Shown here in pieces: positions 5,225 through 45,357 of a stretch of DNA of 64,000 nt (within the stretch, counting starts at the first letter, position 1; the number at the start of each line of letters is the position of its first letter). The position numbers and the translations under genes are program-made. Origin of the DNA: Planctomycetota bacterium (GTDB lineage Bacteria > Planctomycetota > Phycisphaerae > UBA1845); assembly GCA_016860685.1 (NCBI GenBank), contig BOJX01000001.1, positions 29,776-93,775 of the forward strand. The letters run 5' to 3'. The notes under the pieces were generated by a model that saw nothing but the letters and a program-made list of their open reading frames with translations, made no database searches and was not told the origin of the DNA.

Positions 5225-6727
5225 ATGTCTGATGTTCCGCTTCGCGTCCGTTTCGCGCCGTCGCCGACGGGATATCTTCACGTCGGCGGCGCGCGGACCG
5301 TCCTTTTCAATTTCCTCCTGGCGCGCCGCCACGGCGGAACCTTCATCCTGCGCATCGAAGACACGGACCAGGACCGCCACGTCGAGGACTCGGTGGCGAA
5401 GATTCTCGACGACCTGCGCTGGCTCGGCATGAACTGGGACGAAGGACCGGAGAAGGGCGGCGACTTCGGGCCGTATTTTCAGAGCGCGTGCCTCGACGAG
5501 TACCGGGCCTGTGCCGCGCGCCTGCTCCAGTCCGGACAGGCGTATTACGCACTGGAGACCCCGGAGGAGCTGGACGCGATGCGCGAGCGCGCCCGCGCCG
5601 AGAAGCGGTCGTTCAAGTACCTGCGCCCGGACCCGCCACCGACCGTGGCGCAGGGCGAGGCCGCGAAGGCGGCGGGGCGCCCCGTCGTCATCCGCCTCAA
5701 GATGACCGGTGAGCCGATCACCGTGCATGACGAGGTGCTCGGCGATGTGACGATGCCCGCTGAGGAACTCGAGGACTTCGTCATCGTCAAGAGCGACGGC
5801 TGGCCGACGTACCACTTCGCCTGCGTCGTGGACGACGAACGCATGCGCGTCTCGCACGTCATCCGCGCGCAGGAGCATCTGATGAACACGCCGAAGCACA
5901 TCGCCCTCCAGCGGGCGCTGGGCTTCCGCACCCCGCGCTACGCCCACCTGCCGATCATCTTCAACCTCGACGGCACGAAGATGAGCAAACGCGACAAGGA
6001 GAGGGCGATCCGTGAAGGCCGCAAACCGCCGGAGATCGAGGTGCATGATTTCCGCGTGTCCGGGTATCTCCCCGAGGCGCTGATCAATTTCCTGGCGCTG
6101 CTCGGCTGGTCCAGCGGCGACGATCAGGAGCGGTTCACGCTCGACGAACTCGTGCAGCGGTTTTCGCTGGAGCGCGTCGGAAGGACTAACGCCCGCTTCG
6201 ACCGGGAGAAACTCGTCGCGTTTAACACGGAGTGGTGCGCGCGGGTCGGCCCGGCGCGCCTGCTGGAGGCGTTTAAGGACTTCCTCGCCGTCAATCAATC
6301 GCCGCTGTTGAAGTTCGACGAGGCGACGCTCACCCGCCTGCTTGCCGCGAAAAAGGGGCTGCGCACGTTCCGCGACGTCGAGGACTCCGCTCGGTTCCTG
6401 ATCATCAAGGACGACGAGGTCATATATGCCCCCGACGCCGTGCGGAAGGTGCTTGAGAAAAACGAGGGGGCGGGGTACGCGACGCTCGCCGCAATCCTGA
6501 CGGACCTGGATGCACAGACGGACTGGCGGCCCGAGGCTTTGCACGCCCTTCTTGAACGCACATGCGCCGCGCGAGGCCTGAAGATGGGCGACGTCGCCCA
6601 GCCGCTGCGCGTCGCAATCACCGGCACGACCGTCAGCCCGCCGATCCAGGACAGCCTCTCGCTGCTGGGGAAAGCCGCGACCTGCGCCCGCGTCCGGCGC
6701 TGCCTGTCCCAGCGAGCGCCGGGGTAA
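5225..6727 (+). CDS. gltX: glutamate--tRNA ligase
   Basis: RFAPSPTGYLHVGGARTVLFN (HIGH region), ILRIEDTD, and KMSKRD (KMSKS region). 500 aa. Confidence 0.93.
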   Translation: MSDVPLRVRFAPSPTGYLHVGGARTVLFNFLLARRHGGTFILRIEDTDQDRHVEDSVAKILDDLRWLGMNWDEGPEKGGDFGPYFQSACLDEYRACAARLLQSGQAYYALETPEELDAMRERARAEKRSFKYLRPDPPPTVAQGEAAKAAGRPVVIRLKMTGEPITVHDEVLGDVTMPAEELEDFVIVKSDGWPTYHFACVVDDERMRVSHVIRAQEHLMNTPKHIALQRALGFRTPRYAHLPIIFNLDGTKMSKRDKERAIREGRKPPEIEVHDFRVSGYLPEALINFLALLGWSSGDDQERFTLDELVQRFSLERVGRTNARFDREKLVAFNTEWCARVGPARLLEAFKDFLAVNQSPLLKFDEATLTRLLAAKKGLRTFRDVEDSARFLIIKDDEVIYAPDAVRKVLEKNEGAGYATLAAILTDLDAQTDWRPEALHALLERTCAARGLKMGDVAQPLRVAITGTTVSPPIQDSLSLLGKAATCARVRRCLSQRAPG

Positions 6728-7667: not shown

Positions 7668-8693
7668 CTACATCCGCGCCACGCGGGCTGCGAGATCCAC
7701 CGTGCGTGAGGAGTAGCCCCACTCATTGTCGTACCAGCCGACGACTTTGATGAGCGTGCCTCCTTTGCCGGGCATCGTCATCGTGCTTTCCGCATCGATG
7801 ATGCAGCTCGCCGGGTTGCCGATGATGTCGCTGCTGACGACCGGGTCCGTGCAATACTCGAGGATGCCCTTCATCTTACCCTCGGACGCAGCCTTCAGCG
7901 CCGCGTTGATCGCCTCCTTCGTCGCACTTTTCTGAAGCGTGGCGACAAGATCCACGATCGACCCGTCCGGCACCGGCACGCGCAGGGAGAAGCCGTTGAG
8001 CTTCCCGTCGAGGGCGGGGAGCACCTTCCCGACCGCTTTCGCGGCGCCGGTCGTCGTCGGAATGATGTTCTGCGCGGCGGCGCGGGCGCGGCGCAGATCC
8101 TTATGCACGAGGTCGGAGACGCGCTGGTCGTTCGTGTAAGCGTGGACGGTCGTCATCAGCCCCTCGACCAGACCGAACGTCTCGTGAATCACTTTCGCCA
8201 TCGGCGCGAGGCAGTTCGTCGTGCAACTCGCGTTCGAGATGCACAGGTGGCTGCCCTTGAGCTGGTCATCGTTGACCCCGAGGACGACGGTGATGTCCGG
8301 GTCGTCGCTGGCGGGCGCGGAGAGGATCACCTTTTTCGCCCCGGCCTTGAGGTGATCGCCGTAACCGCCCTTTTCCGACGAACGCTTTGTGAAAACGCCG
8401 GTGGATTCGATGCAGACGTCTATGCCGAGTTCCTTCCAGGGAAGTTTCGACGGATCCTTCTCCGCCAGCACCCGGACCGGTTTGCCCTCCACGACGATCG
8501 CTCCGTCCCTCGCCTCGACGTGCTTTTCGAAGCGGCCGTGGACGGAGTCGTACTTCAGCAGGTGTGCGAGGGAGGGCACGTCGGTCAGATCGTTGACGGC
8601 GACAACCTCGAAATCGGACGCCCGCTGCGACATGATACGAAACACGATCTTGCCGATCCTGCCGAGCCCGTTGATCGCCACCCGAACCGCCAT
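7668..8693 (-). CDS. gap: type I glyceraldehyde-3-phosphate dehydrogenase
   Basis: ATG 8693 preceded by AAGGAG. Motifs [15 protein letters not shown] and [12 protein letters not shown] (active-site Cys), with WYDNEWGYS near the C-terminus. Confidence 0.95.
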
Positions 8694-9274
8694 GACAGTT
8701 GCTCCTTTGCTCTGCTCGCGTCCGCCCAGCCGTCCCCGTGCGGGGCGCGCCTTGCCCTGAAACCAGCGAATCCGCAGAAGACGCAGAGGGACGCAGATGT
8801 GCGAAGGCAACGATGCTCGTCTCTGCGAACCGAAGCGCGTCGGTGCGGGGTGTTCCGGATCTCTCAATGCGGAACGCGGATGAAAGTGTAAGAGGGCGGC
8901 TCGCGCCGTCAAGAAACCCGTCGCGGAGCCGACGACGCCGCTCGCCCGGCGCCTCCCGCTCGCAATCGGGTAGGAGGGGGCCTCGCGGCCCCCGTCCTCT
9001 CACTCCACCGGACGTACTCAGCATATCCGGCGGGTTCCTTCAGTGTTGCAATGCGGCATGTCGCGCGGTGAGGTTGAGAAGGCCTTGCCGCGCGAAACAC
9101 TCCTCGGACAGCGCTTCTTTCGCCGCCGGCCTGGCATCCGGTTTCTGTGCGTCGAGTCCGAGTTTTGGCCGTCAGCTTCCTTCAGATTCCGCCTCACGGC
9201 GGACACCCTTGCTCGGCCTGGCGGCTCCGGTCATCACGGCCCGCAGAGGACTTGCACCCCCCAACAGTCACGAC

Positions 9275-15823: not shown

Positions 15824-17905
15824 TCAGGGCTGCGGACCGCAGGTGATGCTCGCCTCCACGCCGCACTCGACGAGATCGACGAAGTGCCGCCCGTTCGGAA
15901 TGCGGAAGAACTTCACCTTCGCCCGGCCGTTGTCCTTCACGACGCGCGGGAAGTCCGTCATCGGGTTGTCGTCGAGACGGAACGTGACCGTTGTCCCCGG
16001 ACGCCCGTTGAACAGCTTCGACACCACGGTGATTGAGTTGTCCAGGTGCAGCTTGCAGCCCATCTGGAGGAACTCCAGACCGGTGCAGTCGCCGCCGCTT
16101 TCGCAGGCATCGCCCACGCCGTTCTCGTCTGAGTCCTCCTGACCGGGGTTCGGGACGTCCGGACAATTGTCCACACAATCCGCGACGCCGTCGCCGTCCG
16201 TGTCATCGTCGCTGACGCCGCAGCCGCACGCGCCTTCCTCGGTCTTGTTCGGATCGTCCGGACAGCCGTCGTTGCAGTCGGGCGTCCCGTCGCCGTCCGT
16301 GTCATCATCGCTGACGCCGCAGCCGCACGCGCCTTCCTCGGTCTTGTTCGGATCGTCCGGACAGCCGTCGTTGCAGTCCGGCGTCCCGTCGCCGTCCGTG
16401 TCATCGTCGCTGACGCCGCAGCCGCACGCGCCTTCCTCGGTCTTGTTCGGATCGTCCGGACAGCCGTCGTTGCAGTCGGGCGTGCCGTCGCCGTCCGTGT
16501 CATCATCGCTGACGCCGCAGCCGCACGCGCCTTCCTCGGTCTTGTTCGGATCGTCCGGGCAGCCGTCGTTGCAGTCCGGCGTCCCGTCGCCGTCCGTGTC
16601 CTCATCGCTGACGCCGCAGCCGCACGCGCCTTCCTCGGTCTTGTTCGGATCGTCCGGGCAGCCGTCGTTGCAGTCCGGCGTCCCGTCGCCGTCCGTGTCA
16701 TCATCGCTGACGCCGCAGCCGCACGCGCCTTCCTCGGTCTTGTTCGGATCGTCCGGGCAGCCGTCGTTGCAGTCGGGCGTGCCGTCGCCGTCCGTGTCAT
16801 CATCGCTGACGCCGCAGCCGCACGCGCCTTCCTCGGTCTTGTTCGGATCGTCCGGACAGCCGTCGTTGCAGTCCGGCGTCCCGTCGCCGTCCGTGTCATC
16901 GTCGCTGACGCCGCAGCCGCACGCGCCTTCCTCGGTCTTGTTCGGATCGTCCGGGCAGCCGTCGCAGGCGTCGCCCGCGCCGTCGCCGTCCCGGTCCGAC
17001 TGATCCTTATTGCTCACGTCCGGGCAATTGTCGACGTCGCCGCAGACGCCGTCGCCATCCGCGTCGTTATCCGGATCGTCGGGGCATGCGTCGCAGTCAT
17101 CGATGATCCCGTCGTCATCCCGGTCGCCTTCGATGAAGTCCGACACGCAGTCGCCGTCGCAATCCACGATCGAGTAGTTGAGGTTGCCGGGATTCAGCGT
17201 CGGTGGCGAATTCACGCCGATCGTCTGCCAACCGAACATCTGGAGCGTGTCCCAGTTGTAGGGACCGGGCGACGTGCCCGTAACGACGCCGCCGGCCCAG
17301 AGCAGGGCGTTGGACCCGCAGCGGATGCGGTGCAAGGCGTCCGGCGTGTACGACTCGAAGCGCCCCAGCGCCGTGCCGCCGAGATCGTCGGCGTACTCAT
17401 GTTCGTCGTCCGGAGTCCCGTCGAACTCCTTGTAGCTGACGGCGTCCACCGTGGTGAAATCCGGGAGCGGTCCGTCCAACGTGCCGTCGTTCCCGGCGTC
17501 AAGATCCTGTCCGACGGTGAACGTACCGCCGAAACCGAGCACATACGTGTTCGTGCCGTTTTCGATGTCGGGGTTGAAGTCGAAGATGACGACGTTCGTG
17601 TCCGGGTCCGGCGGCGGCTGGAGCACTGTGCCCGAGTCGCGGATGAGCAGGAGGCCGTTGGCGCCCGTCGAGTACGAGCTGAGATTGAGCGCGACATCGA
17701 TGACGCCGCCGCCGGTCCCGTCGCCCTCAATGACCAGGAACCACCAGCCGCTGAAATTGAAGTTCGGCGCCGCCTGAATCTCGACGAACTCCTGTCCGTT
17801 GTCGGTTGAGGGCGGATCCAGGAGCAACTCGCTTAGGAATCCCTGCCCCAACGCCTGACCCGCCAGCGCGCAAAGCGCCAGTGCTACCCACGCACGTTTC
17901 CGCAT
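15824..17905 (-). CDS. secreted surface protein: lamin-tail-like domain + thrombospondin type-3-like Ca-binding repeats + Cys-framed C-terminal domain
   Basis: ATG 17905 gives the signal peptide MRKRAWVALALCALAGQALG. FLSELLLDPPSTDNGQEFVEI... is LTD-like. Eight copies of the 33-aa unit DGCPDDPNKTEEGACGCGVSDDDTDGDGTPDCN follow, rich in DxDxDG motifs. Confidence 0.8.
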   Translation of the reverse strand: MRKRAWVALALCALAGQALGQGFLSELLLDPPSTDNGQEFVEIQAAPNFNFSGWWFLVIEGDGTGGGVIDVALNLSSYSTGANGLLLIRDSGTVLQPPPDPDTNVVIFDFNPDIENGTNTYVLGFGGTFTVGQDLDAGNDGTLDGPLPDFTTVDAVSYKEFDGTPDDEHEYADDLGGTALGRFESYTPDALHRIRCGSNALLWAGGVVTGTSPGPYNWDTLQMFGWQTIGVNSPPTLNPGNLNYSIVDCDGDCVSDFIEGDRDDDGIIDDCDACPDDPDNDADGDGVCGDVDNCPDVSNKDQSDRDGDGAGDACDGCPDDPNKTEEGACGCGVSDDDTDGDGTPDCNDGCPDDPNKTEEGACGCGVSDDDTDGDGTPDCNDGCPDDPNKTEEGACGCGVSDDDTDGDGTPDCNDGCPDDPNKTEEGACGCGVSDEDTDGDGTPDCNDGCPDDPNKTEEGACGCGVSDDDTDGDGTPDCNDGCPDDPNKTEEGACGCGVSDDDTDGDGTPDCNDGCPDDPNKTEEGACGCGVSDDDTDGDGTPDCNDGCPDDPNKTEEGACGCGVSDDDTDGDGVADCVDNCPDVPNPGQEDSDENGVGDACESGGDCTGLEFLQMGCKLHLDNSITVVSKLFNGRPGTTVTFRLDDNPMTDFPRVVKDNGRAKVKFFRIPNGRHFVDLVECGVEASITCGPQP
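16202..16993. repeat. 8 tandem copies of a 99-bp in-frame repeat
   Basis: Units start at 16202, 16301, 16400, 16499, 16598, 16697, 16796 and 16895. They are near-identical with a few mostly synonymous differences, and the last unit diverges in its final third. Confidence 0.95.
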
Positions 17906-32081: not shown

Positions 32082-33707
32082 TCACGAGTTGTGAACAAGA
32101 CGCCCGCTTTCCTCGATCCGCTCGCGCAACCGCCGCGCCGACGACTCCGACAACTGCCGCGCCGACAGTCGCCACCGCCAGTTGCCCCGCGCCACGCCCG
32201 GACGGTTCATCCGCGCCTCGCCGCCCAGCCGCAGCACGTCCTGCATCGGCAGCATCACAAGGTCCGCCTCCGACTCCAGCAGTCGGCGAATCAGCGCCTC
32301 ATGAACGCCCGAGCGACCGACTCCCGCATAATGCCTCACGCGCTCGAACGTCGCCTCCGGAAGCGACTCCAGCCAGCCCTTCAACGTGTCGTTGTCGTGC
32401 GTTCCGGTGAACCCCACGCACTTCCGCGGATACCCCTCGGGCCGGTGATACCGCGACCCCGCGCTTTCGTCCCCGAACCCGAATTGAAGCACGCGCATCC
32501 CCGGAAACCCGAAAGCATCCCGCAATTCCGCCGCCCGGCGCGTCAGCACACCCAGATCCTCCGCGACAACCGGAAGCTCTCCGAGCCGGTTGCGCAACGC
32601 GGAAAGCAGTCCCTCTCCCGGCGTCCGGATCCAGCGCCCGCGCCGCGCGTCCCGATCCGCCGCCGGAATCGACCACAGCCGGTGCAGCCCGATGAAATGA
32701 TCGAGGCGCACCGCGTCGAACATCTCCAGCGCTCGCCTGAATCGCGCGACCCACCACGCGAAACCTGTCTCAACGTGCGCCCGCCACCGGTATTGCGGAT
32801 GCCCCCAGCGCTGTCCGCGGCGGTTGAACAAGTCCGCCGGAACCCCCGAGACCGTCCGTGGCAGCCCCTTCCGATCCAGCTCGAACAACTCCGGCGACGC
32901 CCAGGCGTCCGCGCTGTCATGCGCCACGAAAAACGGAATATCCCCGAGCAGCGCCACCCCGCGCCGTGACGCCTCGTCGCGCAACCGCCCCCACTGCTCA
33001 TCCAGAATGAACTGACAGAACCGGGAAAACTCGAACGCCTCCTCCGACTCCGTCAGGCGATCCCGGTCCGCCGGCGTCATTCTTCGCGCAGCCCTCGGCC
33101 ACGACGTCCACACCCGCCCGCCGTGGGCGCGCTTCAGGGCGGCGAACGCCGCGAAGTCGTCCACCCACGGCTGCGACGTGACAAAGTGAACGTAATCCAG
33201 CCGGTCGCACAGCCCGGACGCCCGGAACTCTCGGAACGCTTCCCGCAGGAGCGGCATGCGCATCGCCGCCGCCGCCGCGTAGTCCGACCGATCGGACGAG
33301 TCGCCCCTCGCCGCACTTGCCCCCCAACCCTTCACCGCACCCGCCCGCCGAGCCCGCGCCGCCGCCCGACGCACCGTCGCCGCCCGACGCACCGTCGCCG
33401 CCCGACGCACCGTCGCACGATCCAGCAGACCCTGCTCGACCAGATCGTCCAGGTCGATCATCAGCGGACTGGCGGCGAACACAGAGGATGTCTTGTACGG
33501 ACAACCGCTGCGATCCACCGGATGCACCGGCAGCATCATCCACCAGCGAACCCCCGCGGTATGCAGGTAATCAAGAAACCGCCGCGCGCCGCCCAGATCA
33601 CCGCACCCGAACCCGCCCGGAAGCGACGTCACGTGCAGCAGAACCCCGCAGGCACGCTCAGCCGGCGACGGCGACGGCTTCAGGTATTGGCGCAACATCG
33701 GATTCAT
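32082..33707 (-). CDS. malQ: 4-alpha-glucanotransferase (amylomaltase, GH77)
   Basis: ATG 33707 gives MNPMLRQYL...GVLLHVTSLPGGFGCGDLG... Also DHFIGLHRLW, VVAEDLG and GTHDNDT. Confidence 0.9.
   Translation of the reverse strand: MNPMLRQYLKPSPSPAERACGVLLHVTSLPGGFGCGDLGGARRFLDYLHTAGVRWWMMLPVHPVDRSGCPYKTSSVFAASPLMIDLDDLVEQGLLDRATVRRAATVRRAATVRRAAARARRAGAVKGWGASAARGDSSDRSDYAAAAAMRMPLLREAFREFRASGLCDRLDYVHFVTSQPWVDDFAAFAALKRAHGGRVWTSWPRAARRMTPADRDRLTESEEAFEFSRFCQFILDEQWGRLRDEASRRGVALLGDIPFFVAHDSADAWASPELFELDRKGLPRTVSGVPADLFNRRGQRWGHPQYRWRAHVETGFAWWVARFRRALEMFDAVRLDHFIGLHRLWSIPAADRDARRGRWIRTPGEGLLSALRNRLGELPVVAEDLGVLTRRAAELRDAFGFPGMRVLQFGFGDESAGSRYHRPEGYPRKCVGFTGTHDNDTLKGWLESLPEATFERVRHYAGVGRSGVHEALIRRLLESEADLVMLPMQDVLRLGGEARMNRPGVARGNWRWRLSARQLSESSARRLRERIEESGRLVHNS
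33373..33426. repeat. 3 exact tandem copies of an 18-bp unit inside malQ
   Basis: CGCCCGACGCACCGTCGC x3 on the plus strand, encoding (ATVRRA)3 in malQ. Confidence 0.95.
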
Positions 33708-34103
33708 GCCCGCTACCTTACCGCAAACGACCCGCAAGGGAGCGGGCGCCCCCTACCGAGCCGCGACCGTGAGGGAGCTCGCCGCGCGAGCGCGAATGCG
33801 GGATCGACTCCGCCAGGGAGGATCGGAAGGTTCGCTTGCTGACGCGCGCGGCGCCGATCCGCGACCGTGAGGGAGTGCGAGATTCCGGGCTTTCATGCGG
33901 ATTTGAGACCACGTGTGAGGGTTCGGGACTCGGGTGCTCGGGGATCGTGCGGCGGGCGGCGTGAAAAATCAGGCGCGCCTCAAAAAAATCTCTTGACATC
34001 GGGGGGAGGGGGGCTTGGTAAGCTGGTTCGTTGACGCGTACCGGGCAGGTCTGAGGGGGTCGGCTCGACACGGGTGCGGGGCCGCGGGCTTCTGAACGGA
34101 AGG

Positions 34104-34131
34104 GGCTTCAGGCTTCAGGCTTCAGGCTTCG
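34104..34131. repeat. heptamer microsatellite GGCTTCA x3 + GGCTTCG
   Basis: Read directly, within the 800-bp non-coding region upstream of 34540. Confidence 0.95.
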
Positions 34132-34539
34132 GCGCTGAGGGAACTTTCGGCTTCAGTGCTGAGAGGTTTTGCGTCTCCGCATCAGGGAGGCTTCAAGCCT
34201 CCGAAGGGAGGGTCCGCATGAAGCGGGCCTGGCGGTCGATCCCCGTCGCGGACGCGTCCGTCCGGATCTTGATCCGGAACGGCTTGCGGCCGCGTTCTTC
34301 TGGCGGCGCGATTGTTTCTCGCCCCAACGGGGGCATCGTCCGCGCGCCCCGCCGTCCCCCCGATCCTCCCGAACCCGCGGCGCCAACCGTCCAGGATCGT
34401 CATTCCCGATGCCTTGGCGCGCCGCGGGACGGGGGTTCGCGCGGGCTTCAAGCCCGCTCAGAGGGCGATCCAGGGACGTGCATCGTGATGCCGGAACGTT
34501 TCCGGAACTTTTTCCGCATTTTTTCGTGGAGTTGCGAAC

Positions 34540-35070
34540 ATGTTTCATCATAAGATCGTAACGAAGAATGGCGCTTGGACGGCGATCGCGGGGATCGTCG
34601 TCGTGAGCGCGGGGATGGGGGTTTCCCGCGCGACCGGACCGGAGCCGACGCCGACGATGGTGATGGCGACGGAGGTGACGAGGATGATGACGCCGATGAC
34701 GGGGGCGACGGGGGCCGAGCCGATGCCGATGACGATGCCGATGGCGATGCTCGCGCCGTTCACGTGGACGGGCGGCGGCAGCGACCCGGATTACTGGAAC
34801 GAGACGGCGAACTGGTCCGGGGCGGGCGTGGGCTATCCGGATGACAGCTCGGACGACGCGACGTTTTCCGGCAGTTTTGGCTTCGCCGACTTGGACGCCA
34901 GCCGCACGATTGACGACCTCACCGTGGATGACGGCAGCGGGTCGTACTTCCAATCCGACGGTGAGAACAGCCGGACGCTGACCTGCGACACCGTGGTCAT
35001 CAGCGAAGACACAAGCGGCGATTTCGGCGGCGTTCACGTTACCGGACTGGCCGGCATTGAAACCAACTGA
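34540..35070 (+). CDS. secreted hypothetical protein with Met-rich segment
   Basis: N-terminal hydrophobic segment AWTAIAGIVVVSAGMG. 11 Met in residues 40-70 (TMVMATEVTRMMTPMTGATGAEPMPMTMPMAM). Then FTWTGGGSDPDYWNETANWSG. Confidence 0.65.
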   Translation: MFHHKIVTKNGAWTAIAGIVVVSAGMGVSRATGPEPTPTMVMATEVTRMMTPMTGATGAEPMPMTMPMAMLAPFTWTGGGSDPDYWNETANWSGAGVGYPDDSSDDATFSGSFGFADLDASRTIDDLTVDDGSGSYFQSDGENSRTLTCDTVVISEDTSGDFGGVHVTGLAGIETN

Positions 35071-35158: not shown

Positions 35159-36358
35159 ATGAGATGCAGGTCGCGGCACGTGGTGTGCTGGGTCGTGTGC
35201 GTGGCGGGGCTGGCTTGCCACGCTCAGGCGCAGGTCAACCTGCCGCCAGGATTCGAGATCGTCGAGTTCGCGGAGAACGACTACGGCATAGCCAACGTGG
35301 ATCTCAACGACTGTGGGCAGGTTGCTTATTCGCAATGGCAGGCATCCAACGGTCACAGCGAGATCTTCGTCTATGACAATGGACGCCTCTTCAGAATCAC
35401 CCAGGGAGACGATCGTAATGTCCATCCTGAAATGAACAACGCAGGGCAGATTATCTGGGGAAGAGGCATTGATCGTAGTTCGGTTACGCAACTTGTGTTA
35501 TACAGTCACGGCCAGGAAACCGTCATTGACGAGAACGTCGACAGCTTCAATGGCTGGTCTATCAACAATGTTGGAAACATTGTGTGGTCGAGAAGCATAA
35601 GTTTGCGCTGCCCTCGGCAGGAGAATCTATTCCAATGGGACGGATCAACGGTGACCCAACTCACGTTCGACGCCGACCGCAGCAATGTGCAACCCAGCCT
35701 CAACGACCATGGTGAATTTGCATGGCCTTATTCGAATTTCTGCGACAATCCGTGGAGTGCGGAGGTTCTCGTTAGATATGCAGATCGGCAGATCACGCTG
35801 CCCTCTCCATACACCCAGAATCAAGCAACGGAGATTACCAACTCCGGTTTCGTGACCTGGCTCTCCACATCCCGGTTAATGCTTTGGACAGGGTCTGAAA
35901 GCAGGCTATTGCTGGAAAGAAGCGGGCGGGCGGCCTTAAACGAGTGGCTTCGGCTGTACGTGACCATTTTCGACTTCGAGAAGACCAGTTGGAACCCGTG
36001 GGTGCTCGATGTAACGGACGAGGGCATGAACATGTTCATGCTCAGGGACAGTGATTACTGGTTTTCCGATGGCTCCGTCAATGAGTGGGGAGAAATCGCG
36101 ACCTCCTGGTCCGAGGATCCTCCAAACAGTCGAAACCGCGGCGCCGTGATGTATCTGCGACGCATCCGCACCGGCGACAGCGAGTTTGACGGCGACATTG
36201 ATCTGCGCGACCACAAGCGGTTGGTTCGAGCGATGACCGGACCCGTCCGGACGGAAGGTCTGTGCGAAGATCGTTTTCTGGACATCAATCACGACGGCGA
36301 TCTGGACCTGGACGACTACGCCAGGCTCCAGAACGCCTTTACCGGGGCGACGCCGTAA
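35159..36358 (+). CDS. secreted repeat protein (six or more N-x-x-G-x-hydrophobic-x-W repeats, propeller-like) with C-terminal dockerin-like module
   Basis: Signal peptide ...VVCVAGLACHAQA. Repeats NDCGQVAYSQW, NNAGQIIWGRG, NNVGNIVWSRS, NDHGEFAWPYS, TNSGFVTWLST, NEWGEIATSWS. C-terminus GDSEFDGDIDLRDHKRLVRAMTGP...DINHDGDLDLDDYARLQNAFTG. GC is visibly lower; a 60-nt sample at 35401-35460 is 52%. Confidence 0.7.
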   Translation: MRCRSRHVVCWVVCVAGLACHAQAQVNLPPGFEIVEFAENDYGIANVDLNDCGQVAYSQWQASNGHSEIFVYDNGRLFRITQGDDRNVHPEMNNAGQIIWGRGIDRSSVTQLVLYSHGQETVIDENVDSFNGWSINNVGNIVWSRSISLRCPRQENLFQWDGSTVTQLTFDADRSNVQPSLNDHGEFAWPYSNFCDNPWSAEVLVRYADRQITLPSPYTQNQATEITNSGFVTWLSTSRLMLWTGSESRLLLERSGRAALNEWLRLYVTIFDFEKTSWNPWVLDVTDEGMNMFMLRDSDYWFSDGSVNEWGEIATSWSEDPPNSRNRGAVMYLRRIRTGDSEFDGDIDLRDHKRLVRAMTGPVRTEGLCEDRFLDINHDGDLDLDDYARLQNAFTGATP

Positions 36359-36382: not shown

Positions 36383-37393
36383 ATGAGGAACATTCTTGTG
36401 ATTCTGATCGCGGTGCTGACCTGCGCCGCGTGCGCCGGTGAACCGGCGTTCGCCCAACTGACGCAAACCACGTGGCAGGGTGATGTGAATACGAATTGGT
36501 TTGAAGACGACAACTGGTCGGGCAGCGTCGTGCCCGACGACACATTCGAGGTGGTCATTCCCCACAACCCCACAGGCGGGAGTGTTTGGCCTGTCATCGA
36601 CAACAGCGAGGTGGATGCCGAGGCCGGCAAGCTCACGATGACGGTGAGCGGCGGCACGCGGGCGAAGCTGACGATCCAGTCGGGGTCGGTGCTCATTCTC
36701 GGCAACGGCGGAACCTTGACCTCCACCGTGGACGGCGACCTCGTCCTCGGCGACGGCTCGCTGCCTTACGGTAGTCTGAAGATCAACGGCACGCACACCA
36801 TCACCGGGAAGGGCGGGACGATCGAGCTGAAGGAGAAATCCTCGATCATTCCGCTCAACGACACCGACGACCTACTGATCCTCACGGGCGACAGCGGATG
36901 CACCGGGTATCCCGACGACCGCGCGTGCAGCCTGACGGTCTTCGGCATCGGCTACATCGCGGTGCGCCTGGACAACCGGGCGTTCGTCGTCGGGAAGGAC
37001 GCCGGAGGAACGCCGCTGAAGCTCGACGGTTACGACATGACCGGAACCAGCGTGGGCTGGTGGATCGCGGAGAACGGCGGGTCGATCGCCATCGGGACGG
37101 ACATCACCGGCGCCTGCACCTGGCTGACCAAGGCGAACGCCCCCGGCTCCTTTCTGCTGGGTCATACGGACGTGGGCGACGGGTGCGTGGCCGCGACCGG
37201 CGAGGTGATCCTCAAGTCCGGGTTGCTGAGCGTGCTCGACGGTTCGCGGTTCTGCACGTCGGGCAAGCTGACGTGGAAGTCGGTGGACGTGAACGGCACG
37301 CCGTCACAGGCGCAGATCGTCACCACCGGCGCCGCCACGGCGACCTTCGGCCTGGGCAGCGCGAGCTCCTGCACGGCGTGCAACGTCGAGTGA
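36383..37393 (+). CDS. secreted hypothetical protein, beta-helix-like
   Basis: Signal peptide MRNILVILIAVLTCAACAGEPAFA. TTWQGDVNTNWFEDDNWSG parallels the motif in the 34540 protein. The rest of the sequence is rich in Gly, Thr and Ser. Confidence 0.7.
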   Translation: MRNILVILIAVLTCAACAGEPAFAQLTQTTWQGDVNTNWFEDDNWSGSVVPDDTFEVVIPHNPTGGSVWPVIDNSEVDAEAGKLTMTVSGGTRAKLTIQSGSVLILGNGGTLTSTVDGDLVLGDGSLPYGSLKINGTHTITGKGGTIELKEKSSIIPLNDTDDLLILTGDSGCTGYPDDRACSLTVFGIGYIAVRLDNRAFVVGKDAGGTPLKLDGYDMTGTSVGWWIAENGGSIAIGTDITGACTWLTKANAPGSFLLGHTDVGDGCVAATGEVILKSGLLSVLDGSRFCTSGKLTWKSVDVNGTPSQAQIVTTGAATATFGLGSASSCTACNVE

Positions 37394-37674: not shown

Positions 37675-37772
37675 CAGCCCGTTGAAAAAGGGGTGCGCGT
37701 CCCTTCGGGACGCGAATTTCATCGGGAAAAACCGGCGTCACAAAGACCGATCCCGGGTTCTTCAACGGGCTG
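37675..37772 (-). mobile_element. structured repeat copy C, MITE-like (12-bp terminal inverted repeats, ATAG on both flanks); 63 nt downstream of the tyrA stop
   Basis: CAGCCCGTTGAA (37675-37686) is the exact reverse complement of TTCAACGGGCTG (37761-37772). ATAG occurs at 37671-37674 and 37773-37776. Internal hairpin at 37696-37714. Confidence 0.55.
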
Positions 37773-43952: not shown

Positions 43953-44216
43953 GACGGTGATGGACTCCTTACGACGTTGAGCGCGGCAGCGTCCCGAGGC
44001 GAAGCGGATCTGTCAAGCGCGAGCGCAAACGCGCCGCAAAAAAACAACGAGGCAACACGGCGCCAAGGCACCAAAGTACAGAGTCGCCGCGGAGCCGTGA
44101 ACGACCCGATTCACGCGGCACGCTTCACGCCCTACCCGCACGATCCCCGATTCCCGATGCACGATGCACGACGTGCGATGCCCCCTCCCCGAATCTCCGC
44201 TTCCCGGCGAGCACGG

Positions 44217-44246
44217 TTTACCTCGCCTCGCCCCGTGCGGTATATT
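44217..44246 (+). promoter_or_regulatory. candidate promoter TTTACC-N18-TATATT for pheS
   Basis: Hexamers at 44217-44222 and 44241-44246. Its position argues for a pheS start downstream of it. Confidence 0.35.
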
Positions 44247-44289
44247 CCGCGCCAAGGTCAAACATCGTGGTCCCAGCAGGCAGGAACCC

Positions 44290-45357
44290 TTGAATACGAA
44301 TTCGCATCATGAGGAGCTTCAACGCCTCGAACAGGAAGCCTCGTCACGCGCAGGCGCGGTCCAGTCCGCGGAGGAATTGCGGCGCGTCGAGTCGTCGTTG
44401 CTGGGGAAGGACAGTCCCTTCGGCGGACTGCTGAAGCACCTCAAGTCGCTCCCCCCCGAGCAGCGCGGCGCCTTCGGACAGGCCGTCAACGGCGCCAAGG
44501 CCCGGATCAAGGCGCTGCTGGAGGAGCGGCTCGCCGCCCTCGAATCCGCCGCCGCCCGCACCGAGGACGACGCGGCGCGGGCCTTCGACCCCACCCTCCC
44601 GGGGGCGCAGCGCCCGCTGGGCAGCGTTCACCCGGTCACCGCCGTGCAGTGGGAGATCGAGCGCATCTTCGTGCGCCTCGGGTTCACGATCGAGGCCGGT
44701 CCGGAGATGGAGTCGGAACATTACAACTTCGAAGCGCTGAACATCCCCGCGGATCACCCGGCGCGCGACATGCAGGACACCTTCTGGCTGAAAAACGGGA
44801 AGGTGCTGCGCACGCACACGTCGCCGGTGCAGGTGCGGGCGATGCACAAGTTCGGAGCGCCGCTGCGGACGCTCGTGCCGGGACGCTGCTTCCGCTACGA
44901 GACGATCGACGCCTCCCACGAGAATACGTTTCACCAGGTCGAAGGCCTGATGATCGACCGCGACATCAGCATCGCCAACCTCATCGCGCTGGCGAAGCTG
45001 CTCCTGTCGGAAGTCATGCACCGCGAGGTCGAGTTGCGCATCCGCCCGGGGTACTTCCCCTTCGTCGAGCCGGGCATCGAGATCGACATGAACTGCCAGA
45101 TCTGCGGCGGAAAGGGCTGCCCGACCTGCAAGCACTCGGGGTGGGTGGAGATCCTGCCTTGCGGGATGGTGCATCCGAACGTGCTTCGCGCCGGGCGGAT
45201 CGACCCGGAGGCGTGGACGGGTTTCGCGTTCGGACTGGGGCTGACGCGCCTGGCGATGATGAAGTACGGCATCCGCGACATCCGCGTTCTCAACGCCGGT
45301 GACCTGCGCCCCCTGGTCGGCGCAAGACGCCTGACCGGTCCGATCATCAAAGGCTGA
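44290..45357 (+). CDS. pheS: phenylalanine--tRNA ligase alpha subunit
   Basis: Motifs HPVTAVQWEIERIF, NIPADHPARDMQDTFW, FRYETIDASHENTFHQVEG and FGLGLTRLAMM. The start is uncertain; the in-frame TTG at 44290 is preferred over the track start 44164. Confidence 0.88.
   Translation: MNTNSHHEELQRLEQEASSRAGAVQSAEELRRVESSLLGKDSPFGGLLKHLKSLPPEQRGAFGQAVNGAKARIKALLEERLAALESAAARTEDDAARAFDPTLPGAQRPLGSVHPVTAVQWEIERIFVRLGFTIEAGPEMESEHYNFEALNIPADHPARDMQDTFWLKNGKVLRTHTSPVQVRAMHKFGAPLRTLVPGRCFRYETIDASHENTFHQVEGLMIDRDISIANLIALAKLLLSEVMHREVELRIRPGYFPFVEPGIEIDMNCQICGGKGCPTCKHSGWVEILPCGMVHPNVLRAGRIDPEAWTGFAFGLGLTRLAMMKYGIRDIRVLNAGDLRPLVGARRLTGPIIKG

What the first reader, a model, noticed from the sequence alone, without database searches (positions are those of the whole stretch)
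33738..34539. 800-bp non-coding region packed with short repeats and matching hairpins between malQ and the secreted-protein cluster
I find no convincing ORF on either strand in this region. It contains the following elements:
1. The 17-mer CCGCGACCGTGAGGGAG occurs twice (33761-33777 and 33859-33875), with a variant CGACCCGCAAGGGAGCGGG at 33728-33746.
2. A TTGACA hexamer lies at 33993-33998 next to an A-run.
3. The heptamer array GGCTTCA x3 + GGCTTCG lies at 34104-34131.
4. Two hairpins share the same loop and differ by compensatory stem changes. GGAGGC-TTCAA-GCCTCC is at 34186-34202 and GCGGGC-TTCAA-GCCCGC is at 34441-34457. Their 5' half plus loop is the same GGCTTCA word as the microsatellite.

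This could be a long structured 5' leader, an sRNA locus, or an array of protein-binding sites controlling the downstream cluster.
Basis: seen in the sequence. Interest (0 to 1): 0.55.

Follow-up and report, generated by a model that had tools for sequence, protein, structure and literature searches.

The report
Repeat-laden promoter and long leader
The 830-base gap is two things joined together. Next to malQ is a patch of a widespread "REP-like" palindromic repeat; the rest is the conserved promoter and roughly 515-base untranslated leader of a strain-variable secreted-protein gene cassette. The leader's slippery simple repeats differ in length between strains and may tune or switch the cassette, but this is not proven.

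Summary
All four motifs are real and sit at the stated coordinates. The gap (33708-34539) is non-coding and has no Rfam match, but it is not one element.

**Part A (33708-~33977).** This is a strain-variable array of a dispersed REP/REPIN-like repeat. The same 20-mer occurs 107 times in 71 IMG/VR stretches, as palindromic doublets and tandem arrays. It also occurs at unrelated loci in a sister genome.

**Part B (33978-34539).** This part travels with the downstream three-gene secreted-protein cassette even where the upstream gene differs. It runs A-tract, TTGACA, a G6AG6 spacer (G13-14 in relatives), TAAGCT, then a ~515-nt leader. The leader is better conserved than cassette genes 2 and 3.
- The GGCTTCA array has 4 units here and 2 in relatives.
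- The two hairpins are separate conserved stems with variable loops, not compensatory copies of each other.
- Leaders of paralogous cassettes carry other simple repeats: (AGACCCG)5/6/9, T8-11, (CT)8 and (GCTTCAA)~5. Two of these are the only difference between otherwise identical sequences.

**Best reading.** A promoter plus long 5' leader acts as a contingency-type control module. Switching itself is inferred, not shown. No covariation supports a specific RNA fold.

The parts
32082..33707 (-). malQ (4-alpha-glucanotransferase, GH77), the left boundary of the gap. It contains a perfect in-frame 18-bp x3.2 repeat at 33360-33416.
   Evidence: Pfam PF02446, E = 1.2e-144. TRF. The ATG was read from the sequence.
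33728..33746 (+). Degenerate REP-like core (CGACCCGCAAGGGAGCGGG) inside a 12-nt-arm hairpin (33708-33719 / 33736-47) that abuts the malQ start.
   Evidence: inverted repeat I11. Conserved in L005.
33756..33778 (+). REP-like core, copy 1 (CCGAGCCGCGACCGTGAGGGAGC).
   Evidence: An exact 23-mer is also present in L013, L005 and L086.
33810..33990 (+). 181-nt composite repeat unit. It holds a degenerate inverted REP doublet (left arm 33833-33857, right arm and core copy 2 at 33858-33877) and a G·U-rich 17-bp hairpin (about 33880-33932).
   Evidence: 81% identical to L006 6066-6243, at a different locus and in a different orientation. The copy number of sub-units differs between the window, L005 and L086. 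Fold.
33982..33998 (+). A7 tract followed by TTGACA (-35-like). This is the left edge of the sequence that is conserved together with the cassette.
   Evidence: Conserved in window, L005, L085, L086, L089, L091, L092 and L099. Homology with the AP_endonuc_2-context loci starts here.
34001..34013 (+). Interrupted poly-G tract (G6AG6) that forms most of the 20-nt spacer. Relatives have G13, G14 or G8AG5.
34019..34024 (+). TAAGCT, the -10-like hexamer (TAGGCT in relatives), preceded by TGG.
34025..34539 (+). Conserved ~515-nt putative 5' leader of the cassette.
   Evidence: Alignments. nhmmer profile hits. Identity profile. Minimum-free-energy z = -2.8.
34104..34131 (+). Heptamer microsatellite (GGCTTCA)x3 + GGCTTCG. 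Relatives carry 1+1 units. It is absent from L089/L099.
   Evidence: Logan contig L004 starts exactly at 34104.
34186..34202 (+). Hairpin 1, GGAGGC-TTCAA-GCCTCC. The stem is invariant and the loop varies.
   Evidence: z = -3.4 together with hairpin 2.
34210..34230 (+). Hairpin 2, GGGUCCGC-AUGAA-GCGGGCCU. Its loop carries an ATG that follows the Shine-Dalgarno-like GAAGGGAGGG. 34218-34248 is a 31-nt block that is invariant in all relatives.
34441..34457 (+). Hairpin 3, GCGGGC-TTCAA-GCCCGC. The stem is invariant and the loop varies.
34488..34539 (+). Invariant U-rich block. It holds overlapping TTCCGGAA-type palindromes and terminator-like hairpins, then a T6 run (34519-34524) and a GGAG Shine-Dalgarno sequence (34528-34531).
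34540..35070 (+). Cassette gene 1: 176 aa, signal peptide, no known family. Followed by gene 2 (35159-36358, 51% GC, hypervariable) and gene 3 (36383-37393).

Best explanation
The gap is a composite of two unrelated parts.

**(1) 33708-~33977: REP/REPIN-like repeats.** A short array of a dispersed, palindromic repeat (core GAGCCGCGACCGTNAGGGAGCG) sits in the divergent intergenic space next to malQ. It gains and loses units between strains. It probably has no specific role for the cassette.

**(2) 33978-34539: the cassette's expression-control module.**
- An A-tract and TTGACA (-35) are followed by a 20-nt spacer made mostly of a G-run, then TAAGCT (-10). This promoter drives a ~515-nt 5' leader.
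- The leader contains a slippage-prone heptamer array, three GC-rich hairpins, and an invariant U-rich block with a Shine-Dalgarno sequence just before the ATG at 34540.
- The module is kept nearly intact while the cassette body (genes 2 and 3) is swapped or diverges. It therefore also serves as the conserved 5' homology arm of a variable cassette.

**Proposed mechanism.** Length changes in simple repeats alter expression of the secreted proteins in a heritable but reversible, contingency-locus way. The G-run would act through -35/-10 spacing. The heptamer would act through leader geometry or an upstream reading frame.

**Shown:** the composite nature, the conservation, the linkage to the cassette, repeat-length differences between strains, and repeat-only polymorphism in paralogous leaders.

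**Inferred:** the transcription start, and any effect of repeat length on expression. In this strain the G-run is interrupted (G6AG6), so promoter switching is probably locked here.

**Sub-claim probabilities:**
- REP-like family: 0.85
- Leader belongs to the cassette: 0.85
- TTGACA is the promoter: 0.6
- Repeat-driven switching: 0.35
For: **REP part**
- The window unit 33810-33990 recurs at 81% identity at an unrelated locus in the sister metagenome-assembled genome L006, with partial copies at two further loci. An exact 23-mer is present in L013.
- Unit number differs between the window (2 cores) and L005 and L086 (3 cores each).
- The 20-mer core occurs 107 times in 71 IMG/VR stretches, in contigs of 50-68% GC. 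It appears as singletons, as perfect inverted doublets (L101) and as ~68-nt tandem arrays (L106, L145).

**Leader and promoter**
- Homology to L085, L091 and L092, which have AP_endonuc_2 rather than malQ upstream, starts at the A-tract at 33978 and runs to the ATG at 87% identity. L089 and L099 are 78-81% identical.
- Against L087, L089 and L091 the leader is 72-97% identical, while genes 2 and 3 fall to about 45%.
- L085 and L091 share chromosomal site and leader but have different cassette bodies.
- Paralogous leaders have TTGACT-N17-TACCAT, TTGACA-N18-TAGAAT, CTGACA-N18-TATGCT and TTGACG-N17-TAGGAT, 250-435 nt upstream of the gene-1 start where that distance was measured (c2 and P0007 types). 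Long leaders from sigma-70-like promoters are therefore a family trait, and the extra 2-4 nt in this type is accounted for by the longer G-run.

**Simple repeats**
- The G-run is G6AG6, G13, G14 or G8AG5 in different relatives. The heptamer has 4 units here against 2 in relatives.
- L091 and L093 have 0 substitutions over 900 nt and differ only by (AGACCCG)9 against 6.
- L095-L098 have 0 substitutions over 1030 nt and differ only by T10, T11, T10 and T8.
- The 5-copy AGACCCG allele fuses an upstream Shine-Dalgarno-ATG in frame with gene 1.
- L176 and L177/178 are ~99.6% identical. They differ by a 4-nt duplication in the promoter spacer (17 to 21 nt) and a frameshift in gene 1.
- Homopolymers of 10 or more, and multi-copy 7-8-mers, in the ~165 kb of Phycisphaerae loci scanned lie only in cassette leaders or flanks. 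Further period-7 and period-8 arrays lie in the two other leaders checked.
- Logan contig L004 starts exactly at the first base of the array. In a k = 31 graph whose 31-mers are unique, that is where a co-existing longer allele would force a break (PMC12424806).
Against: - The -35/-10 spacing of 20-21 nt is outside the usual 16-18 range. It is the same in all nine c1-type promoters examined, two of which have interrupted tracts of the same total length. That looks like a maintained length rather than free switching.
- The G-run does not differ among near-identical assemblies of this leader type. L085, L091 and L092 all have G14; L005 and L086 both have G13.
- Contigs that span this strain's leader are 100% identical to the window: L001, plus L002, which was found in 15 samples.
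- The heptamer array is missing from L089/L099, so it is dispensable.
- RNAalifold places it in the variable tip of a long predicted helix, where length changes could simply be tolerated.
- There are no transcription data.
- The L004 break is a single indirect clue.
- The L177 frameshift lies in a T2/T3 run and is shared by four assemblies. That looks like decay rather than phase variation.
Confidence: 0.6

Rival explanations
1. The leader is a structured cis-regulatory RNA: a riboswitch-like, attenuator or processive-antitermination leader. The hairpins and the U-rich terminator-like block before the ribosome-binding site decide whether transcription or translation proceeds. The simple repeats are incidental. 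This is compatible with the promoter-plus-leader anatomy above.
For: - The leader is ~515 nt long and better conserved than the genes it precedes.
- It contains invariant blocks, including a 31-mer and the last ~50 nt.
- Stems are conserved while loops vary.
- In L085/L091, 34255-34333 is replaced by a different hairpin-forming sequence.
- Minimum-free-energy z = -2.8 for the whole leader and -3.4 for hairpins 1 and 2.
- There are 5 terminator-like sites against 1.1 expected, two of them in the invariant block.
Against: - No Rfam family matches, even at E <= 10.
- The RNAalifold covariation term is +0.68. The few compensatory pairs sit in the poorly aligned replaced segment.
- The terminator-like block folds no better than shuffles (z = -0.9).
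- The T-run, Shine-Dalgarno sequence and ATG are also shared with distant cassettes that lack the rest of the leader. That fits a plain strong translation-initiation region.
- There are only about five independent lineages, so the test has little power.
Confidence: 0.25
2. The simple repeats and hairpins are mutational noise in a tolerant non-coding region. The promoter and the translation-initiation region are the only functional parts. Repeat-length differences have no effect on expression.
For: - The heptamer array is absent from L089/L099.
- The region between the conserved blocks also carries 25-nt and 36-nt duplications and a replaced segment.
- G-run length is stable within lineages.
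- GC-rich intergenic DNA forms hairpins readily. Hairpin 3 has z = -1.1.
Against: - Long repeat tracts were found only in cassette leaders or flanks in ~165 kb of related sequence.
- Five unrelated leader types each carry one.
- A GCTTCA-core period-7 array sits ~80-85 nt after the -10 hexamer in two leader types that no longer align.
- In the c2-type leader the array sits between a Shine-Dalgarno-ATG and the gene, where copy number sets the reading frame.
Confidence: 0.3
3. The repeated GCTTCA/GGCTTCAAGCC words are binding sites for a DNA- or RNA-binding regulator of the cassette.
For: - GGCTTCA is over-represented (15 against 7.3), with 6 copies in the leader.
- GCTTCAAGC is a near-palindrome.
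- A (GCTTCAA)x4.7 array and an inverted GCTTGAAGC occur at the equivalent position in the unrelated L176-type leader.
Against: - L089/L099 keep the leader but have only one or two such words.
- The central bases of the palindrome change in relatives: TTCGG and TTCTT in hairpin 1, TGAA in hairpin 3.
- No candidate regulator gene is linked to the cassette.
Confidence: 0.12
4. The gap hides a small gene. One candidate is the 111-codon ORF at 34218-34553, which has a strong Shine-Dalgarno sequence. The other is an sRNA within the 181-nt repeat unit.
For: - GAAGGGAGGG-N6-ATG is conserved, and the first ~13 codons are invariant.
- c2-type leaders have the same AGGGAGG-N7-ATG.
- The 33880-33932 hairpin relies on about six G·U pairs, which fits RNA from the + strand only.
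Against: - One-nucleotide indels change the reading frame after ~33 codons. The stop falls at -59, -52, +13 or +21 relative to the main ATG, or the ORF fuses with gene 1, depending on the relative.
- The 31-mer is invariant at synonymous positions too, which does not look like coding constraint.
- The ATG lies in a hairpin loop.
- No gene is called on public contigs and there is no Pfam hit.
- The repeat unit folds no better than shuffles on either strand (z = -0.9 and +0.9).
Confidence: 0.07

Closest known systems
REP / REPIN / BIME elements (repetitive extragenic palindromes and their inverted doublets and clusters, from my own knowledge of the Enterobacteria and Pseudomonas literature)
   Same: - Short GC-rich imperfect palindrome.
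- Extragenic location.
- Occurs as singletons, inverted doublets that form long hairpins, and tandem clusters.
- Copy number at a locus differs between close strains.
   Different: - The same 20-mer core is found in contigs of very different GC content (50-68%), whereas classical REPs are species-specific.
- No RAYT transposase was examined.
- The per-genome copy number is unknown: only one locus in this 64-kb window, and three in the 21 kb of L006.
Simple-repeat contingency loci of host-adapted bacteria. Examples from my own knowledge: poly-G/C tracts in the promoter spacers of Neisseria porA, opc and fetA; CTCTT repeats in opa; tetranucleotide repeats in Haemophilus lic and mod.
   Same: - Homopolymer in the -35/-10 spacer.
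- Non-triplet repeats between a start codon and the mature protein (c2-type leader).
- Targets are secreted or surface proteins that are hypervariable between strains.
- Repeat length is the only polymorphism between otherwise identical sequences.
   Different: - The organism is a free-living or bioreactor Phycisphaerae.
- The spacing is 20-21 nt in every allele seen.
- The tract is interrupted in this strain.
- The heptamer lies in an untranslated leader.
- No expression data exist.
- A search of the held literature found no paper that deals with phase variation in Planctomycetes: three papers contain the search terms, and none is about that, judged from titles and abstracts only.
Conserved long 5' leaders of variable surface-structure operons. 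Examples from my own knowledge: JUMPstart/ops leaders recognised by RfaH, and the EAR or LoaP antitermination leaders.
   Same: A long leader that is better conserved than the variable gene cluster it precedes. It can serve as the upstream homology arm for cluster exchange.
   Different: - No ops element was shown. GGCGGTCG at 34231-34238 resembles GGCGGTAG only by eye.
- No NusG paralogue was examined.
- The cargo is three secreted proteins, not a polysaccharide pathway.

Membership tests
REP/REPIN-like dispersed repeat | Short imperfect palindrome able to form a hairpin | tested here: met
   The core reads CCGCGACC-GTGA-GGGAGCGG. A perfect 25-nt-arm inverted doublet is present in L101. The window holds a degenerate doublet at 33833-33877.
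REP/REPIN-like dispersed repeat | Many copies dispersed at unrelated, mostly intergenic, loci | tested here: inconclusive
   There are three separate loci in the 21.5 kb of L006, one in L013, and 107 copies in 71 IMG/VR stretches. In this 64-kb window there is only one locus. No whole genome could be counted.
REP/REPIN-like dispersed repeat | Clusters whose unit number varies between strains | tested here: met
   The window has 2 cores; L005 and L086 have 3 each, with 60-nt and 28-nt unit indels.
REP/REPIN-like dispersed repeat | A cognate RAYT (Y1 transposase) in the genome | not testable with these tools
   Only 64 kb of the genome is available.
Simple-repeat phase-variable (contingency) locus | A simple repeat placed in a promoter spacer or in the 5' coding or leader region | tested here: met
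   G6AG6 lies between TTGACA and TAAGCT. The heptamer lies ~80 nt after the -10 hexamer. The paralogous leader has (AGACCCG)n between a Shine-Dalgarno-ATG and gene 1.
Simple-repeat phase-variable (contingency) locus | Tract length polymorphic among otherwise identical sequences or within a population | tested here: inconclusive
   Met for paralogous cassettes: 0 substitutions over 900 nt and over 1030 nt, with only the repeat differing. For this leader type, differences are seen only between lineages that are 7-20% diverged, plus the indirect contig break at 34104.
Simple-repeat phase-variable (contingency) locus | Tract length changes expression (ON/OFF or graded) | not testable with these tools
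   No transcriptome or reporter data are available.
Known cis-regulatory RNA or sRNA family (Rfam 15) | Match to a covariance model at or near the gathering score | tested here: not met
   Nothing in the gap reaches the gathering score. The best E-value-mode hits are miRNA and lncRNA noise.
Structured RNA in general | Base pairs supported by compensatory substitutions | tested here: inconclusive
   Of 147 predicted pairs, 7 have double changes. The covariation term is +0.68. Most pairs are invariant, and there are only about five lineages.
Sigma-70-type promoter | -35 and -10 hexamers 16-18 nt apart | tested here: not met
   The spacing is 20 nt here and 20-21 nt in relatives. The hexamers themselves are conserved. 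Paralogous leaders do have 17-18 nt.
Intrinsic terminator or attenuator | Stable GC-rich stem directly followed by a U-tract | tested here: inconclusive
   Consensus scan hits at 34491-34505 and 34503-34516. The stems are only 5-6 bp, and the block has z = -0.9.

The most novel reading that the evidence does not exclude
Phycisphaerae of the JABWBH01 group carry a family of exchangeable three-gene secreted-protein cassettes. Each cassette is driven by a long conserved control module that has recruited a different hypermutable simple repeat:
- a poly-G tract in the promoter spacer
- period-7 arrays in the leader or in an upstream reading frame
- a (CT)n repeat
- a poly-T tract before the Shine-Dalgarno sequence

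This would be a contingency-locus system, combining phase variation with cassette swapping, in a free-living or bioreactor planctomycete. Such systems are otherwise known mainly from host-adapted pathogens.
Probability: 0.3. Interest if true: 0.7.

Novelty: new member of a known kind. Interest (0 to 1): 0.45.

Why it matters
If repeat length really sets expression, stochastic switching of surface or secreted proteins would extend to environmental Planctomycetota. It would also give a concrete, testable locus: tract lengths can be counted in reads that already exist.

The conserved leader is a handle for finding and comparing these variable cassettes in metagenomes.

The REP-like core, shared across contigs of very different composition, is a useful flag for spurious ORFs and for assembly breaks. 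If none of this holds, the region is simply a promoter, a long untranslated leader and junk repeats.

Tried and rejected
- **Rfam.** Gathering mode on the whole window and E <= 10 mode on the gap found nothing relevant.
- **Coding.** The two longest ORFs have no Pfam hit. The ORF at 34218 with a Shine-Dalgarno sequence is not frame-conserved.
- **Sigma-54 promoter.** TGGTAAG-N4-TTCG lacks the -12 GC, by eye. Rejected.
- **ECF-type promoter.** GGAAC-N16-CGT at 34503-34527 is absent from distant cassettes that share the T-run, Shine-Dalgarno sequence and ATG. It would also remove the Shine-Dalgarno sequence from the transcript. Kept only as a minor possibility.
- **CRISPR.** The 67-69-nt periodic arrays of the 20-mer in IMG/VR contigs looked like CRISPR. 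The 'spacers' are identical, so these are tandem repeats.
- **Exact-protein look-ups.** malQ and P0002 are not on record.
- **Metagenome scan.** Searching with the invariant 30-mer gave one contig, a near-duplicate of L089.
- **Long-range pairing 34340-34358 / 34426-44.** A G-to-C change in relatives breaks a pair instead of compensating, by inspection.
- **Cassette proteins.** PADLOC, PHROGs, NCBIfam and PDB sequence searches found only a sub-threshold NxxGxxAF repeat and EF-hand/dockerin-like hints.
- **Literature.** A search for the core sequence gave 0 papers.
Full report
**Observation**

The window comes from a ~67% GC Phycisphaerae (Planctomycetota) genome. Its closest public relatives are metagenome-assembled genomes labelled Phycisphaerae and g_JABWBH01.

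malQ (GH77, E = 1.2e-144) is on the minus strand and starts at 33707. The next gene starts at 34540 on the plus strand. The true gap is therefore 33708-34539, or 832 bp.

All four motifs are present at the stated coordinates:
- The 17-mer is exact at two sites and sits inside a 22-nt repeat.
- TTGACA at 33993 follows an A7 run.
- The perfect period-7 array is at 34104-34130.
- The two GGCTTCAAGCC-centred hairpins are present.

GGCTTCA is enriched, at 15 hits against 7.3 expected, with 0 of 100 shuffles reaching that.

No ORF in the gap is credible:
- Nothing is called there on identical public contigs.
- There are no Pfam hits.
- There is no conserved reading frame.

Rfam gives nothing.

**The gap is two unrelated pieces**

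I compared the window with relatives obtained through malQ and through the downstream 176-aa protein.

Homology that follows malQ (L005, L006) ends about 28 nt upstream of the malQ ATG in L006. Homology that follows the downstream cassette starts at the A-tract at 33978 and runs to the ATG. This holds although L085, L091 and L092 have an AP-endonuclease gene upstream instead of malQ, and L089 and L099 have another context again.

**Part A (33708-33977): REP-like repeats**

- The stretch 33810-33990 recurs at 81% identity in L006, 3.7 kb from malQ and in the opposite orientation. L006 has two further partial copies, and L013 has an exact 23-mer.
- Close relatives differ by whole repeat units: two cores in the window, and three each in L005 and L086.
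- The core GCCGCGACCGTNAGGGAGCG occurs 107 times in 71 IMG/VR stretches of 50-68% GC. It appears singly, as perfect inverted doublets with 25-nt arms (L101), and as ~68-nt tandem arrays (L106, L145). Those arrays are not CRISPR, because their 'spacers' are identical.
- The window's copy at 33833-33877 is a degenerate doublet.

This is the behaviour of REP/REPIN/BIME-type elements, judged from my own knowledge of that literature. A G·U-rich hairpin at about 33880-33932 would form only in plus-strand RNA. The unit as a whole folds no better than shuffles.

**Part B (33978-34539): promoter**

The sequence A7-TC-TC-TTGACA-TC-G6AG6-CTTGG-TAAGCT is conserved in all nine c1-type promoter sequences examined, in three different upstream contexts. 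It is the only TTGACA...TANNNT in the window.

The spacer is 20 nt here and 20-21 nt in relatives, because of a G-run: G13 in L005 and L086, G14 in L085, L091 and L092, and G8AG5 in L089 and L099.

Leaders of paralogous cassettes have near-canonical promoters, 250-435 nt upstream of the start where I measured it (c2 and P0007 types):
- TTGACT-N17-TACCAT
- TTGACA-N18-TAGAAT
- CTGACA-N18-TATGCT
- TTGACG-N17-TAGGAT

I therefore take TTGACA as the -35 hexamer. The extra 2-4 nt of spacer in this leader type is accounted for by the longer G-run. Whether a 20-21-nt spacer is weak, off or normal in this organism is unknown. The constancy of 13-14 across lineages, including two interrupted tracts, argues for a maintained length.

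**Part B: leader**

The leader is better conserved than the genes it precedes. Against L087, L089 and L091 it is 72-97% identical, while genes 2 and 3 drop to about 45%.

L085 and L091 share chromosomal site and leader but carry different cassette bodies. L091 carries at least two cassettes in tandem.

Conserved features:
- A 31-nt invariant block at 34218-34248.
- Three hairpins with invariant stems and variable loops.
- An invariant final ~50 nt with overlapping TTCCGGAA palindromes, T-runs and a GGAG Shine-Dalgarno sequence.

In L085 and L086 the first has a TTCGG loop while the second keeps TTCAA.

The ATG at 34218 follows a strong Shine-Dalgarno sequence but lies in a hairpin loop. Its reading frame is broken by 1-nt indels in relatives.

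The whole leader folds better than shuffles (z = -2.8). RNAalifold finds essentially no covariation (term +0.68), and only about five independent lineages are available. A specific structure is therefore unproven.

**Simple repeats**

- The GGCTTCA array has 3+1 units here and 1+1 in L085, L086, L091 and L092. It is replaced in L089 and L099.
- Logan contig L004 begins exactly at 34104. Logan graphs use k = 31 and every 31-mer is unique within an accession (PMC12424806). A co-existing allele with more units would force a contig start at precisely that base. This is suggestive, but it is a single clue.
- L091 and L093 have no substitution over 900 nt and differ only by (AGACCCG)9 against 6. L095-L098 have no substitution over 1030 nt and differ only by T10, T11, T10 and T8.
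- The AGACCCG array lies between a Shine-Dalgarno-ATG and gene 1. Five copies fuse that ATG in frame, giving a 200-aa product, whereas 6 or 9 copies end a short upstream ORF on the gene's own Shine-Dalgarno sequence.
- Other leader types carry (CT)8 in an upstream ORF, (GCCTCAGT)x3 and three period-7 arrays. One of those, (GCTTCAA)x4.7, lies ~85 nt after the -10 hexamer. That is the same position and the same GCTTCA core as the window's array, although the two leaders no longer align.
- L176 and L177/178 are ~99.6% identical. They differ by a 4-nt duplication that lengthens the promoter spacer from 17 to 21 nt, and by a frameshift in gene 1.
- In the ~165 kb of related sequence scanned, homopolymers of 10 or more and multi-copy 7-8-mers occur only in cassette leaders or flanks.

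**Interpretation**

The best-supported anatomy has three parts:
1. A REP-like repeat patch.
2. A promoter with a G-run spacer.
3. A long conserved 5' leader belonging to a variable secreted-protein cassette.

The most likely function of the repeats is contingency-type modulation of expression, which I put at about 0.35. The main alternative is tolerated mutational noise. A structured or attenuating leader is compatible with the anatomy and remains open.

In this strain the G-run is interrupted. Every public contig from this strain that spans the leader is identical to the window, so any promoter switch is probably locked here.

**Known and new**

REP-like repeats, long leaders and simple-repeat switches are all known kinds of feature. 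The leader family has no Rfam match.

The cassette proteins are uncharacterised:
- The gene-3 family has only 20 clusters, all hypothetical.
- Gene 2 shows only sub-threshold NxxGxxAF and dockerin/EF-hand hints.

I found no paper on phase variation in Planctomycetes.

Noticed in passing
window 37677-37772: A ~96-nt element with 11-nt terminal inverted repeats (AGCCCGTTGAA...TTCAACGGGCT) encloses the hairpin GCGCGTCCCTTCGGGACGCG. Logan contig L001 is 99.98% identical to the window up to 37770, then continues into unrelated genes (adh_short, S21, sigma-70). Contig L002, found in 15 samples, ends at 37755. The synteny break falls exactly at the right arm, on the cassette's 3' side.
   Followed up: partly
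window 35159-36358: Cassette gene 2 has 51% GC in a 67% GC genome. It is the most divergent part of the cassette: 60-73% identity in 35325-35775 against relatives that are otherwise 97-99% identical, and it cannot be aligned with other cassettes.
   Followed up: partly
window 33360-33416: A perfect in-frame 18-bp x3.2 tandem repeat lies inside malQ. Logan contigs L001 and L002 both break here, at 33387.
   Followed up: no
L091 5001-10684; L092 and L086 (same assembly): Cassettes occur in tandem arrays (227/389/273 aa, then 177/390/274 aa, and so on). One genome holds two copies of the c1-type leader, with G14 and G13. That could drive cassette deletion or exchange by recombination.
   Followed up: partly
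L087 3901-3915; L088 3901-3920: A G15 tract lies 3' of a fourth cassette gene. The sister contig from another sample ends inside the tract, at G20.
   Followed up: no
L087 and L088, position 1 (equivalent to window 34218): Contigs from two independent samples both start at the first base of the 31-nt invariant block. In a k = 31 graph this implies that the 31-mer is shared by at least two leader copies or variants in those samples.
   Followed up: partly
L089 5411-5435 and ~5770-5841; L099: This leader variant carries a 25-nt duplication of the G-run/-10 region and a 36-nt tandem duplication further downstream. L099 also has a partial second leader copy ~2.2 kb upstream (7714-7851).
   Followed up: no
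window 34231-34238: GGCGGTCG inside the invariant 31-mer resembles the ops core GGCGGTAG recognised by RfaH. The comparison is from memory. An 8-mer like this is expected by chance several times in 64 kb.
   Followed up: no
L176 1939-1971, 2064-2097, 2139-2155; L091 8624-8686; window 34104-34130: Tandem repeats in cassette leaders are predominantly of period 7, across leader types that do not align. I have no explanation for that period.
   Followed up: partly
window 8988-9203 (-): Match to group II intron domains D1-D4 (RF02001, 52.5 bits).
   Followed up: no
window 16188-16964: A 99-bp x7.8 tandem repeat at 97% identity, probably a repeat within a coding region.
   Followed up: no
window 44138-44171: A degenerate period-7 array (GCACGAT x4.9) lies in another intergenic region, upstream of the ORF that starts near 44164-44310.
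   Followed up: no
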